Positions 3,589 to 4,877 of a DNA stretch of 13,125 nt are shown here, in pieces; positions within the stretch are counted from its first letter, which is position 1; the number at the start of each line of letters is the position of its first letter. The notes beneath the pieces were generated by a model that worked only from the letters and a program-made list of their open reading frames with translations, had not been told where the DNA came from and made no database searches. Source of the stretch: a virus (taxonomy: Duplodnaviria; Heunggongvirae; Uroviricota; Caudoviricetes); IMG/VR virus record IMGVR_UViG_2585427787_000002; one strand, 5' to 3'. Made by a program: the position numbers and the translations under genes.

Positions 3589-4236
3589 TCAGCGACCAAT
3601 CACCACAACCTGACCACCGTCCCCTTCGTCTGCCGTGCTGATCTCCTGAGAAACCACGCGAGACCCCACGCGCATTTCACCGTACAGAACAGGCAGAACA
3701 TTGCCCTGGGCAACCATGTTATCCAGTGAGGAGAAATAGGTGTTCTGTTTGCCGTTATCTGTACTGGCTGCCGTGGGCGTCCTGGCTTTCGGTGCCAGCA
3801 TCTGCGCCACTCCGCCCAGGATCATACTGGCCCCTGCCGCATACATGCCCGATACAGCCGCGGCCCCCAGCCAGCCCACAGGGTTCCACCATGCCACCGC
3901 AATCAGCGCCGCCCCAAGCACCACCTGAAACACACCGCCACTTTTAGCTCCCGCCAGACGCGGCACGATGTGGATCACGGCACCATTTGCCAGCGGCTCA
4001 TTAAGACGGGCAGATAATTCATTTTCGCCTGCATCACGCCCGGCAATGCGCACCTGATACCAGCCCTCATTCAGTTTCTGACGAAACACCGGGAGCTGTG
4101 TGGCCAGTGCCCGGATGGCTTCAGCCCCCGTTTTCACACGAAGGTCGATACGGCGACCAAATCGTTGCAAATCCCCGTAAAGGCAGATGCGTGCCATGCC
4201 CGGTGACGCCAGAGGGAGTGTGTGCGTCGCTGCCAT
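3589..4236 (-). CDS. I: Tail assembly protein I (215 aa)
   Basis: MAATHTLPLASPGMARICLYGDLQRFGRRIDLRVKTGAEAIRALATQLP... and C-terminus ...NVLPVLYGEMRVGSRVVSQEISTADEGDGGQVVVIGR match lambda gpI as I recall it. ATG at 4236..4234. Overlaps the 3' end of K by ~100 nt in another frame, as in lambda. Confidence 0.93.
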   Translation of the reverse strand: MAATHTLPLASPGMARICLYGDLQRFGRRIDLRVKTGAEAIRALATQLPVFRQKLNEGWYQVRIAGRDAGENELSARLNEPLANGAVIHIVPRLAGAKSGGVFQVVLGAALIAVAWWNPVGWLGAAAVSGMYAAGASMILGGVAQMLAPKARTPTAASTDNGKQNTYFSSLDNMVAQGNVLPVLYGEMRVGSRVVSQEISTADEGDGGQVVVIGR

Positions 4237-4877
4237 TTGTCGGTGTACCTCTCTCGTTTACTCAGTTGTTCAGGAATATGGTGCAGCAGCTCGCCGTCGC
4301 CACAGTAAATGGCGGCATGATTCGGCACCGATGAACCAAAACAGCACAGCAGCACGTCGCCAGGCTGCGCCTCTGTCAGTGGGACACGGTAAAAACCCGT
4401 TGCCTCCATATTGTCAAGATAGAGATTCTGGCCGTGACGCCACCAGTCATCCCCGCGATGCAAATCCGGCATCTCAATTCCCGCCAGATGGTAAGCGTCC
4501 CGGAACAGCGTGTAACAGTCCGTCACCCCGTGCTCAAAGCGCCGCCCGGTGAGATGCGGCACACAGCGGAATTTATGAATCGCCCCCCGGCAGACCAGCC
4601 ACCACGGCAAATCACTCTGCACCTGCAGCCGCCGGTCGGCCTCACTCAGCCAGGGCAGACCACCGGGGTGGCTGTGGACCAGCGCCACAATCTCTCCCTG
4701 CATTTCTGCACTCAGCCAGTCCTCCGGCGACATCCGGAAATAATCCTCCGGCTCACCGGAGATATTCACGCAGGGAAAATATCTTTCCCCCTCCGGCGTT
4801 CTCACCACGAAGCCGCACGACTCCGCTGGCGCACATCGCCGGGCGTGCGCCAGAATCGCTGATTCTGTCTCTGTCAT
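4134..4877 (-). CDS. K: Tail assembly protein K (247 aa), JAB/MPN metalloprotease domain plus NlpC/P60 domain
   Basis: Start chosen at the internal ATG (4877..4875, MTETESAILAHARRCAPAESCGF...), which matches the lambda gpK N-terminus; the track's longer ORF (from 4919) would overlap L. JAMM motif is visible: H68-S-H70-x7-S78-x2-D81 (VHSHPGGLPWLSEAD). Cys/His-containing C-terminal half (DCYTLFRDAYH, VPNHAAIYCG). Confidence 0.92.
   Translation of the reverse strand: MTETESAILAHARRCAPAESCGFVVRTPEGERYFPCVNISGEPEDYFRMSPEDWLSAEMQGEIVALVHSHPGGLPWLSEADRRLQVQSDLPWWLVCRGAIHKFRCVPHLTGRRFEHGVTDCYTLFRDAYHLAGIEMPDLHRGDDWWRHGQNLYLDNMEATGFYRVPLTEAQPGDVLLCCFGSSVPNHAAIYCGDGELLHHIPEQLSKRERYTDKWQRRTHSLWRHRAWHASAFTGICNDLVAVSTFV

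What the first reader, a model, noticed from the sequence alone, without database searches (positions are those of the whole stretch)
3589..4877. K and I carry the JAB/MPN + NlpC/P60 and ubiquitin-like architecture
K shows an intact JAMM metal-binding motif (HSHPGGLPWLSEAD, residues 68-81, about plus 4635-4676) and a Cys/His C-terminal half consistent with an NlpC/P60 peptidase, while I is the adjacent, partly overlapping partner. This matches the published computational proposal that lambda gpK and gpI form a ubiquitin-like conjugation or processing pair in tail tip assembly. The catalytic residues appear intact here, so the pair is presumably functional, which makes a J frameshift in the same module more striking.
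Basis: partly seen in the sequence, partly recalled or inferred. Interest (0 to 1): 0.35.

Follow-up and report, generated by a model that had tools for sequence, protein, structure and literature searches.

The report
Lambda-type tail-tip genes K and I
These are ordinary, intact copies of phage lambda's tail-tip assembly genes K (two protease domains) and I (a ubiquitin-like domain fused to the tail plug), an arrangement first described in 2006; similar tail modules occur in most complete E. coli genomes.

Summary
On the minus strand, K (4134-4877, 247 aa) has a Prok-JAB domain (res 4-98) and an NlpC/P60 domain (res 111-224). HSHPGGLPWLSEAD lies exactly at residues 68-81 (4635-4676). I (3589-4236, 215 aa) overlaps K by 103 nt and carries the Lambda_tail_I domain.

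K's model is confident (pLDDT 96.8). Its N-domain matches JAMM deubiquitinase-type enzymes and its C-domain matches MepS/Spr-type endopeptidases. In 109 relatives (33-73% identity) the best-conserved columns include E19, H68, H70, D81, C121, H187 and H199.

The ubiquitin-like fold of I is only weakly shown here: the model is poor, though its top three fold matches are MoaD. A G-[AS]-K-x-[GS]-G motif after that domain is kept in distant homologues.

This is the architecture published by Iyer, Burroughs and Aravind (2006). K is 94% and I 82% identical to lambda's. "Processing" is the supported reading; no E1/E2 genes are annotated in a 98.9%-identical locus, so "conjugation" is not.

Cleavage of I by K remains unproven. 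A 2026 F-pyocin preprint shows the I homologue loses its N-terminal domain during maturation, but the protease is unidentified.

The J break is real in this sequence. The window is one short draft contig, so the break says little. Already known; low interest.

The parts
4134..4877 (-). Gene K, tail tip assembly protein K, 247 aa (stop codon included)
   Evidence: ORF and translation. 94% identical to resequenced lambda K and 100% identical to phage vB_EcoS-569R4 K. Matches phrog_30 'minor tail protein' at 1.8e-161.
4584..4868 (-). JAB/MPN+ (JAMM) metalloprotease domain of K, residues 4-98
   Evidence: Pfam PF14464, E 7.9e-14. Profile hits to 2kks (2.4e-14) and P. furiosus JAMM1 5lda/5ld9 (6e-12). 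Foldseek hits to JAMM1, AMSH, CSN5 and Rpn11, all probability 1.0.
4821..4823 (-). Codon of E19, the catalytic Glu of the JAMM site (PAESCG)
   Evidence: Aligns with the Glu of JAMM1 'vEvCGf'. Conserved in 104 of 110 sequences.
4635..4676 (-). JAMM motif HSHPGGLPWLSEAD, residues 68-81 (H68, H70, S78, D81)
   Evidence: Read directly from the sequence. H68 is kept in 106, H70 in 105 and D81 in 106 of 110 sequences; S78 is S in 100 and T in 7.
4206..4547 (-). NlpC/P60 (C40) papain-like peptidase domain of K, residues 111-224. Catalytic codons: C121 at 4515-4517, H187 at 4317-4319, H199 at 4281-4283.
   Evidence: Pfam PF00877, E 1e-12. Profile hits to Spr/MepS at 2e-7. Foldseek hits to MepS, Acd and LytE, probability 1.0. 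C121 is kept in 104, H187 in 106 and H199 in 106 of 110 sequences.
3589..4236 (-). Gene I, tail tip assembly protein I, 215 aa (stop codon included)
   Evidence: ORF. Matches lambda gpI chains 8iyk/8iyl/8k35/8xcg at E 7e-107. 82% identical to lambda I. Matches phrog_32 'tail assembly protein'.
3946..4197 (-). N-terminal TAPI domain of I, residues 14-97, reported as a ThiS/MoaD-like ubiquitin-like beta-grasp domain
   Evidence: Pfam PF06805, E 3.1e-24. The AF2 model is poor (pLDDT 47), but the top three PDB fold hits are MoaD with probability 0.95-0.99 and E 0.02-0.1. Assigned to the Ub-like fold in PMC1779556.
3934..3951 (-). G96-A-K-S-G-G101, the glycine motif directly after the last strand of the Ub-like domain and the predicted cleavage point
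   Evidence: G96, A97, G100 and G101 are invariant in 17 relatives. G96, A97 and G101 are invariant in homologues only 28-33% identical. The motif reads GSKQSG in F-pyocin chain 25vf_9 and GSKTGG in 9l9p_A. Lambda gpI is resolved from residue 101 onward (PMC11101478).
3793..3933 (-). Gly/Ala-rich hydrophobic linker of I, residues 102-148; two predicted membrane helices in lambda; variable length
   Evidence: 8 residues shorter than in lambda. I length varies from 211 to 223 aa among near relatives. Transmembrane prediction is from PMC11101478 and PMC7291167.
3592..3861 (-). C-terminal part of I, about residues 126-215, equivalent to lambda gpI 134-223, which forms the trimeric plug in the tail-tip lumen
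   Evidence: Aligns to the modelled 90-residue gpI chains of 9e7m at E 7e-44. Structural role is from PMC10721106 and PMC12617516.
4134..4236 (-). 103-nt overlap of K (codons 214-247 plus stop) and I (codons 1-34); the I frame is -1 relative to K
   Evidence: Coordinates. 77 of 80 near-relative loci have an ATG exactly 103 nt before the K stop. 13 of 17 variable sites are synonymous in the I frame and non-synonymous in the K frame.
4248..4255 (-). GAGAGAGG, a Shine-Dalgarno-like sequence 11 nt upstream of the I start codon at 4236
   Evidence: Read from the sequence.

Best explanation
Identity. These are the K and I genes of a lambda-like tail-tip assembly module (order M-L-K-I-J) in an E. coli prophage.

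What K and I are. K is a soluble assembly factor that does not end up in the particle. It has two apparently active peptidase centres: a Zn-dependent JAMM/MPN+ site (E19, H68, H70, S78, D81) and a papain-like NlpC/P60 triad (C121, H187, H199). I is a three-part protein: an N-terminal ThiS/MoaD-like ubiquitin-like domain ending in G-A-K-S-G-G, a hydrophobic linker, and a C-terminal domain. The C-terminal domain forms the trimeric plug that holds the tape-measure C-terminus inside the tip.

Proposed mechanism. Full-length I enters the nascent tip with J and L. K's JAB domain recognises the Ub-like domain and cuts at or after the conserved glycine motif (about G101|V102), as JAMM enzymes cut after the C-terminal Gly-Gly of ubiquitin-like proteins. 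Removing this domain lets the tip go on to dock the tape measure and tube. K then leaves.

What is shown and what is inferred. Shown here: domain identities, intact and family-conserved catalytic residues, gene order and overlap, and purifying selection. [quoted passage not shown] Inferred: that K is the protease, that the JAB domain does the cutting, the exact cleavage site, and the substrate of the NlpC/P60 domain.
For: Domains and folds:
- Pfam domains all score above their curated cut-offs.
- The K model is confident (pLDDT 96.8, pTM 0.91).
- Its N-domain superposes on P. furiosus JAMM1, including the entry solved with the Ubl SAMP2 (5lda), and on AMSH, CSN5 and Rpn11. Its C-domain superposes on MepS/Spr, Acd and LytE. 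The profile search against PDB sequences agrees.

Conservation and selection:
- In 109 full-length relatives at 33-73% identity, the 16 columns conserved at >=93% include E19, H68, H70, D81, D120, C121, H187, H199 and H200. This argues for retained catalysis at both sites.
- dN/dS among 77 near relatives is 0.22 (JAB), 0.10 (NlpC/P60), 0.20 (I Ub-like domain) and 0.17 (I C-terminus).
- The glycine motif after the Ub-like domain is kept in homologues of 28-33% identity and in the F-pyocin protein.
- M-L-K-I order is kept in distant phages.

Literature:
- The proposal itself is in PMC1779556.
- gpK is not detected in virions by mass spectrometry, and gpI 135-223 is modelled as the plug (PMC10721106).
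- gpK is required for tail assembly (PMC12617516).
- Lambda gpI is resolved from residue 101 onward, which is the GG boundary (PMC11101478).
- In F-pyocin, the N-terminal region of PA0640 is present in stalled precursor tips and absent from mature particles. PA0639 (the gpK homologue) is essential for tips and absent from particles (bioRxiv 10.64898/2026.02.24.707460).
Against: - No experiment links K to cleavage of I. The F-pyocin authors state that the cleavage mechanism is unknown, and that recombinant PA0640 alone loses its N-terminal region to unknown E. coli proteases.
- For lambda, the N-terminal domain of gpI is merely 'unresolved', so it may be flexible rather than removed.
- The Ub-like fold of I is weakly supported here: the model has pLDDT 47 and the Foldseek E-values are 0.02-0.1.
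- The role of the second (NlpC/P60) site is unexplained by the model.
- In this particular contig J is interrupted, so the module may not produce tails in this host.
Confidence: 0.6

Rival explanations
1. K is a virion-associated or infection-time cell-wall hydrolase. Its NlpC/P60 domain would cut peptidoglycan cross-links to let the tail tip or tape measure cross the periplasm, and its link to I would be incidental.
For: The closest structural and sequence matches of the C-domain are peptidoglycan endopeptidases: MepS/Spr, CwlO, LytE and the C. difficile autolysins. The peptidoglycan-cleaving enzyme of lambda is stated to be unidentified (PMC11101478).
Against: gpK was not detected in lambda virions by mass spectrometry and is not resolved in any tail structure. 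The F-pyocin homologue PA0639 is absent from mature particles, yet its deletion gives tip-less tubes, which is an assembly defect rather than an entry defect. This reading also does not explain the equally conserved JAMM site.
Confidence: 0.1
2. K acts as a non-catalytic chaperone or scaffold for the J-I-L tip complex. The peptidase folds would be binding modules only.
For: K is classically described as an assembly protein, and recent papers describe it only as a required factor of unknown location or as a 'maturation factor'. No enzymatic activity has been shown.
Against: The catalytic residues of both sites are among the most conserved columns across relatives down to 33% identity, while the rest of the protein diverges. 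Pseudo-enzymes normally lose such residues.
Confidence: 0.1
3. K and I form a true ubiquitin-like conjugation system. The Ub-like domain of I would be released with a free Gly-Gly end and covalently attached to another tail or host protein.
For: The Ub-like domain is followed by a conserved Gly motif, and a JAB peptidase is encoded next to it.
Against: No E1-like adenylating enzyme or E2-like gene is annotated in the 98.9%-identical locus, which carries head and tail structural or assembly genes plus the Lom outer-membrane protein gene. The 2006 paper itself proposes processing for the phage case. No conjugates have been reported in virion proteomics.
Confidence: 0.03
4. In this genome the pair is an inert remnant. 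The prophage is defective because J is broken, and K and I are intact only because decay is recent, so 'presumably functional' does not apply to this locus.
For: J is split at 916/917 into ORFs of 898 and 248 aa. Close relatives also carry J or L genes annotated as frameshifted.
Against: The window is a single short draft contig, and the break lies at an allele-type junction found in no complete E. coli genome, so a sequencing or assembly error is not excluded. K is identical in protein sequence to that of phage vB_EcoS-569R4. This reading is also compatible with the main explanation of what the genes encode.
Confidence: 0.2

Closest known systems
Phage lambda gpK and gpI (tail tip assembly proteins K and I)
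   Same: Same gene order (M-L-K-I-J), same 103-nt K/I overlap and the same domains. K is 94% identical and I 82% identical.
   Different: I here is 8 residues shorter in the hydrophobic linker. The reference lambda record annotates K as 199 aa because one G is missing from that sequence; resequenced lambda has the same 247-aa K as here.
TAPK/TAPI of Iyer, Burroughs & Aravind 2006 (phage tail-assembly Ub-like protein plus JAB/NlpC-P60 peptidase neighbourhood)
   Same: Exactly this architecture: JAB + NlpC/P60 in K, and in I a ThiS/MoaD-like Ub domain with a C-terminal Gly, a Gly-rich linker and the TAPI-C domain, next to J.
   Different: Nothing architectural. [quoted passage not shown]
F-type pyocin PA0639 (gpK homologue) and PA0640 (gpI homologue, PDB 25vf chain 9)
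   Same: Homologous plug protein (profile E 6e-27) with the same motif position, GSKQSG. Its N-terminal region is removed during maturation. The K homologue is essential and absent from the particle.
   Different: It is a tailocin of Pseudomonas with distant sequence. The protease is not identified there either.
Archaeal JAMM1 with the ubiquitin-like SAMP2 (P. furiosus, PDB 5ld9/5lda), and eukaryotic AMSH, CSN5 and Rpn11
   Same: Same MPN+ fold and the same E...HxH...S..D site. These enzymes cut after the C-terminal Gly-Gly of a beta-grasp protein, which is the chemistry proposed for K acting on I.
   Different: Those enzymes remove conjugated modifiers made by an E1-dependent pathway. Here the Ub-like domain is translated as part of the substrate and no E1/E2 is present.
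MepS/Spr, CwlO, LytE (NlpC/P60 peptidoglycan DL-endopeptidases)
   Same: Same papain-like fold and Cys-His-His triad.
   Different: Those are secreted or lipoprotein cell-wall enzymes. K has no signal peptide feature noted, is fused to a JAB domain, and acts in cytoplasmic tail assembly. Its substrate is unknown.
Phage T5 baseplate hub protein pb3 plug domain
   Same: It occupies the same place in the tip lumen as the gpI C-terminal tripod (PMC10721106).
   Different: In T5 the plug is an insertion within the hub protein. It has no Ub-like domain and no K-like peptidase gene between the hub parts.

Membership tests
JAB/MPN+ (JAMM) metallopeptidase | Significant match to the Prok-JAB/MPN profile | tested here: met
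   PF14464: E 7.9e-14, 51.9 bits against a cutoff of 25, residues 4-98. Profile against PDB sequences: 2kks 2.4e-14, 2kcq 3.8e-13, JAMM1 6e-12.
JAB/MPN+ (JAMM) metallopeptidase | Complete JAMM motif: E ... H-x-H-x7-S-x2-D | tested here: met
   E19, H68, H70, S78 and D81 are read from the sequence. They align to the corresponding residues of JAMM1. They are conserved in 100-106 of 110 relatives.
JAB/MPN+ (JAMM) metallopeptidase | MPN fold | tested here: met
   AF2 model with pLDDT 96.8. Foldseek hits 5ld9/5lda with TM (target) 0.65, rmsd 2.6-2.7 A and probability 1.0; also AMSH, CSN5 and Rpn11.
JAB/MPN+ (JAMM) metallopeptidase | Zn2+ binding and (iso)peptidase activity | not testable with these tools
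   This needs biochemistry.
NlpC/P60 (MEROPS C40) peptidase | Significant match to the NLPC_P60 profile | tested here: met
   PF00877: E 1e-12, 48.4 bits against a cutoff of 23, residues 111-224, full profile length 1-105/105. Spr and MepS at 2e-7.
NlpC/P60 (MEROPS C40) peptidase | Cys-His-(His/polar) catalytic triad in the canonical order | tested here: met
   C121 (in 'DCY'), H187 (in 'NHAAIY') and H199 (in 'LLHH'). H187 and H199 align to the His residues of Spr 'RHVGIY...FVHA' and of 8idc. C121 lies outside the printed alignments; it is assigned from its position near the start of the full-length Pfam match. Each is conserved in 104-106 of 110 relatives.
NlpC/P60 (MEROPS C40) peptidase | Papain-like alpha+beta fold | tested here: met
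   Foldseek hits to MepS 8xup, Acd33800 9ubf, 7v6t and Spr 2k1g, with TM (target) 0.58-0.68, rmsd 2.5-3.9 A and probability 1.0.
NlpC/P60 (MEROPS C40) peptidase | Defined substrate (peptidoglycan stem peptide or other) | not testable with these tools
   The substrate of K is unknown. K is absent from virions.
Ubiquitin-like beta-grasp (ThiS/MoaD-like) domain, TAPI family | Match to the Lambda_tail_I profile | tested here: met
   PF06805: E 3.1e-24, residues 14-97, profile positions 2-83 of 83.
Ubiquitin-like beta-grasp (ThiS/MoaD-like) domain, TAPI family | Beta-grasp fold | tested here: inconclusive
   The AF2 model has mean pLDDT 46.9, and 50-66 over residues 14-92. Even so, the top three Foldseek hits are MoaD (1fm0_D, 1nvi_D, 1jwb_D; probability 0.95-0.99, TM target 0.58-0.61, E 0.02-0.1), followed by ubiquitin variants, NUB1-UBL, Hub1 and SUMO. 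No ThiS/MoaD Pfam hit appeared even at E<=10. The fold assignment rests mainly on PMC1779556.
Ubiquitin-like beta-grasp (ThiS/MoaD-like) domain, TAPI family | Conserved glycine at the C-terminal end of the domain | tested here: met
   G96, A97, G100 and G101 are invariant in 17 relatives. G96, A97 and G101 are invariant in homologues at 28-33% identity. The motif is present in 25vf_9 and 9l9p_A.
Ubiquitin-like conjugation system (E1/E2-dependent) | E1-like adenylating enzyme and/or E2-like gene in the neighbourhood | tested here: not met
   The genes annotated in the near-identical locus are head and tail structural or assembly genes plus lom. In the Pfam listing of the J-to-H part of the source contig, only K has enzyme-like domains.
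Lambda-type tail tip assembly module | Gene order M-L-K-I-J after the tape-measure gene | tested here: met
   Pfam assignments for M, L, K, I and J. Same order as annotated in lambda, in close relatives and in distant phages.

The most novel reading that the evidence does not exclude
K would be a dual-purpose maturation protease of the tail tip. Its JAB site would clip the ubiquitin-like domain off I at the G-A-K-S-G-G motif as an assembly checkpoint. Its separately conserved NlpC/P60 site would perform the other unexplained cleavage of lambda tail assembly, the conversion of the tape measure gpH to gpH*; the protease for that step is stated to be unknown (PMC12617516). Nothing in this window tests the idea. 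It is simply not excluded, and it would explain why two catalytic centres are both conserved in a protein that never reaches the virion.
Probability: 0.12. Interest if true: 0.55.

Novelty: already known. Interest (0 to 1): 0.1.

Why it matters
For this window it matters little. It is one more intact copy of a gene pair whose domain architecture was published in 2006. Matches to this 13-kb tail module occur in 4687 of 5426 complete E. coli genomes, and the K/I segment itself matches 266 phage records.

The underlying biology is still open. After about 50 years nobody has shown what gpK does, and recent cryo-EM papers on lambda do not mention the JAB/ubiquitin-like idea. If K cuts the ubiquitin-like domain off I, that would be a virus-encoded ubiquitin-like/JAMM processing step that gates the assembly of a tail machine. 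That experiment is best done in lambda or F-pyocin, not on this contig.

A practical side result also emerged. The reference lambda record annotates a truncated, 199-aa K that lacks the first 48 residues of the JAB domain, and this has misled at least one later domain analysis.

Tried and rejected
1. Programmed -1 frameshift making a K-I fusion, by analogy with lambda G/GT. The I frame is -1 relative to K. However, it is open only from 4257, and the only X XXY YYZ heptamer in K (GGGTTTT at 4398) lies outside that stretch. The K-I fusion proteins in the database are clusters of 1-2 sequences, of unexamined origin. Rejected.

2. The TTG at 4919 as the K start (261-aa ORF). Rejected. All homologues start at MTE/QTES, the ATG at 4877 follows the L stop by 4 nt, and the JAB profile starts at residue 4.

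3. Antisense ORFs on the plus strand (3726-3947, 4098-4334, 4187-4552, 4434-4862). No Pfam match at E<=0.1. No Rfam family anywhere in the window.

4. Confident structure for I. This failed because the alignment was shallow (pLDDT 47). A Pfam scan of the isolated N-domain at E<=10 gave no ThiS/MoaD hit.

5. Fetching many divergent K loci:
- The 81-sequence alignment was too diverse for the pattern scan.
- Single divergent queries gave only 5 loci, of which two were analysed.

6. Active-site geometry in the K model could not be measured, because model coordinates are not exposed to scripts.

7. The Casjens & Hendrix lambda review (PMC4424060) is not held.
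Full report
WHAT IS THERE

The window is a lambda-type head and tail module read on the minus strand. ORF listing and Pfam give this order:
- tape measure H (ORF 5922-9017);
- M (5590-5922, Phage_min_tail);
- L (4882-5580, Phage_tail_L);
- K (4134-4877);
- I (3589-4236);
- J, split into 832-3528 and 113-859.

A look-up by exact protein shows that the window is one entire 13,125-bp contig, JORH01000124.1, of draft assembly GCA_000713095.1. The best complete-genome match is 98.9% identical over 99% of the window. 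4687 of 5426 complete E. coli genomes have some match to the window. The K/I segment matches 266 phage records and is 99.5% identical to Escherichia phage vB_EcoS-569R4.

CHECK OF THE OBSERVATION

K starts at the ATG at 4877, 4 nt after the L stop, and is 247 aa.

The motif is a canonical JAMM signature (H68-x-H70-x7-S78-x2-D81), with the upstream catalytic Glu at E19.

Pfam finds the following, each above its curated cut-off:
- Prok-JAB in K, residues 4-98, E 7.9e-14;
- NLPC_P60 in K, residues 111-224, E 1e-12;
- Lambda_tail_I in I, residues 14-97, E 3.1e-24.

K and I overlap by 103 nt (4134-4236).

DEEPER TESTS ON K

An exhaustive search of 1.84 billion cluster representatives found 2797 relatives, 293 of them at E<=1e-30. 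I aligned 109 full-length relatives that are 33-73% identical to K. The 16 columns conserved in at least 93% of sequences include E19, H68, H70 and D81, and D120, C121, H187, H199 and H200. S78 is Ser in 100 sequences and Thr in 7. Both active sites are therefore under selection across the family.

An AlphaFold2 model built on 81 diverse sequences is confident, with pLDDT 96.8 and pTM 0.91.

Foldseek against the PDB gives two sets of matches, all with probability 1.0:
- The N-domain matches Pyrococcus furiosus JAMM1, including the entry solved with the ubiquitin-like SAMP2 (5lda). It also matches AMSH, CSN5 and Rpn11.
- The C-domain matches MepS/Spr, the C. difficile autolysins and LytE.

A profile search of PDB sequences agrees. 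It hits 2kks at 2.4e-14, JAMM1 at 6e-12 and Spr at 2e-7, and its printed alignments place E19, H68, H70, S78, D81, H187 and H199 on the known catalytic positions; C121 falls outside the printed alignment.

DEEPER TESTS ON I

I matches the lambda gpI chains of the tail-tip cryo-EM entries (8iyk and others) at E 7e-107. It is 82% identical to lambda gpI, and its hydrophobic linker is 8 residues shorter.

The alignment available for structure prediction was shallow, and the model is poor (pLDDT 47). Even so, the three best PDB fold matches are MoaD (probability 0.95-0.99, E 0.02-0.1). They are followed by ubiquitin variants, NUB1-UBL, Hub1 and SUMO. I count this as weak corroboration only; the fold assignment rests mainly on the 2006 paper.

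The glycine motif that follows the last strand of this domain (G96-A-K-S-G-G101) is well conserved:
- invariant among 17 relatives;
- G96, A97 and G101 invariant in homologues only 28-33% identical, taken from distant phage loci;
- present as GSKQSG and GSKTGG in the two other solved homologues.

Those distant loci keep the M-L-K-I order. One of them carries two tandem K paralogues.

SELECTION AND THE OVERLAP

In 77 of 80 near-relative viral contigs, K is 247 aa and an ATG sits exactly 103 nt before its stop.

Pairwise dN/dS against the window is as follows:
- K JAB domain: 0.22;
- K NlpC/P60 domain: 0.10;
- I Ub-like domain: 0.20;
- I C-terminus: 0.17.

These are pairs against one sequence, not independent events.

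Inside the overlap, 13 of 17 variable sites are synonymous in the I frame and non-synonymous in the K frame. This includes sites in I codons 12 and 13, upstream of the internal Met14. The I frame therefore dominates, and the long form of I (start at 4236, with a GAGAGAGG Shine-Dalgarno-like sequence at 4248-4255) is favoured.

A programmed K-I frameshift was considered and rejected, because there is no slippery site where the I frame is open.

WHAT IS KNOWN

Iyer, Burroughs & Aravind (2006, PMC1779556) described exactly this arrangement. TAPK has JAB and NlpC/P60 domains. TAPI has a ThiS/MoaD-like Ub domain ending in a conserved Gly, a Gly-rich linker and a C-terminal domain, and it sits next to J. 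They proposed that the JAB domain releases the Ub-like domain by cutting at that glycine. That is processing. No E1/E2 genes accompany the pair, and none is annotated in the 98.9%-identical locus.

Later structural work adds the following:
- gpI residues 134/135-223 form a trimeric plug that holds the C-terminus of the tape measure. gpK is not detected in virions (PMC10721106 and PMC12617516).
- In the closed tail, gpI is resolved from residue 101 onward, which is from the GG boundary. The N-terminal domain is never seen (PMC11101478).
- Also in F-pyocin, the gpK homologue PA0639 is required for tips and absent from particles, and the protease is unidentified (bioRxiv 10.64898/2026.02.24.707460).

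None of these papers connects the removal to K's JAB domain.

MOST LIKELY MECHANISM

K is a transient maturation factor with two live peptidase centres. I enters the tip as a precursor. K's JAB domain binds the Ub-like domain and cuts at or after G101. The C-terminal plug stays in the tip and K leaves.

The identity and intactness of the domains are shown here. The fate of the two proteins is shown by others. The link 'K cuts I', the site of the cut and the substrate of the NlpC/P60 domain are all inferred.

Rival readings are a cell-wall hydrolase, a non-catalytic chaperone, true conjugation, and an inert remnant in this host. Each is weighed in its own section; none fits the conservation pattern and the virion data as well.

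THE J REMARK

J is indeed interrupted. Compared with an intact J (NZ_CP097001), 64 bp are missing after ...GAAGACCAGAGTGC, at window 916/917.

The sequence upstream of the junction follows that allele type, while the sequence downstream is lambda-like. No complete E. coli genome contains the junction. The exact 898-aa product is found only on this contig. Only about 1 nt of microhomology flanks the junction.

I cannot tell a real deletion from a sequencing or assembly error. Either way it says nothing about K and I.

VERDICT

The feature is already known and extremely common. Interest is low.

Noticed in passing
L004 4267/4268 (NC_001416 about 14266/14267); corresponds to window about 4739-4745: The reference lambda sequence (J02459/NC_001416) lacks one G in GGAGGC[G]TATTTC compared with resequenced lambda (PV340536, LC730321). 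At least 20 other lambda-like phage records also match the 301-nt query over 302 nt. As a result, K is annotated there as 199 aa starting at Met49, without the first 48 residues of the JAB domain, including the catalytic Glu. The real K is 247 aa, as in this window. A 2020 HHpred analysis that used the 199-aa form reported only a peptidase domain (PMC7291167).
   Followed up: yes
window 916/917 (J: ORFs 832-3528 and 113-859): J is broken by a 64-bp gap relative to an intact J (NZ_CP097001). The break lies exactly where the sequence switches from that allele type to a lambda-like C-terminal part. The junction is absent from all 5426 complete E. coli genomes searched. A real deletion and an assembly error cannot be told apart.
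   Followed up: partly
whole window (1-13125): The window is one complete contig (JORH01000124.1, 13,125 bp) of draft assembly GCA_000713095.1, so both ends are assembly breaks inside a repeated prophage region.
   Followed up: yes
window 4134-4236: In the K/I overlap, natural variation follows the I reading frame. 13 of 17 variable sites are synonymous in I and change the C-terminal tail of K. I codons 1-11 show no variation at all. In a distant homologue (L090) the K/I overlap is only 7 nt.
   Followed up: yes
window 4134-4236; L001 6653-7201; L002 5001-5582; L005 2275-2847: Public annotations disagree on the start of I. It is 215/223 aa from the ATG at 4236, about 200 aa in many protein-database entries (a length that would fit a start at Met14; not checked), 193 aa and 190 aa in two phage records, and 182 aa from a GTG that overlaps the K stop. 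The shorter forms would remove the first strand of the Ub-like domain.
   Followed up: partly
window about 3793-3933 (I residues 102-148): The Gly/Ala-rich hydrophobic linker of I is length-polymorphic. I is 211, 213, 215 or 223 aa among near relatives, and this copy is 8 residues shorter than in lambda.
   Followed up: partly
L089 2402-4053: A distant metagenomic phage carries two tandem K paralogues, each with JAB and NlpC/P60 motifs, between an enlarged L-like gene (415 aa) and the I homologue.
   Followed up: no
protein database hits P0017, P0028, P0100, P0137; phrog_28576, phrog_35166, phrog_31: K-I, JAB-I and I-J fusion proteins or families exist. The E. coli K-I fusions are clusters of only one or two sequences, and their origin was not examined. 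A JAB-TAPI fusion and TAPI-J fusions were already noted in the 2006 paper.
   Followed up: partly
L001 3113-6592; L003 5447-6146 and 12727-14188; L093; L002 1445-4940: Tail genes of the closest relatives are often annotated as frameshifted or split: J in NZ_CP083701, NZ_CP027544 and phage vB_EcoS-569R4, and L and the capsid fusion gene in NZ_CP097001. This fits frequent decay of these prophages, or sequencing errors.
   Followed up: no
window 5922-9017: The tape-measure gene here encodes about 1021-1031 aa, against 853 aa in lambda. By the known length-ruler role of this protein, that would predict a longer tail.
   Followed up: no
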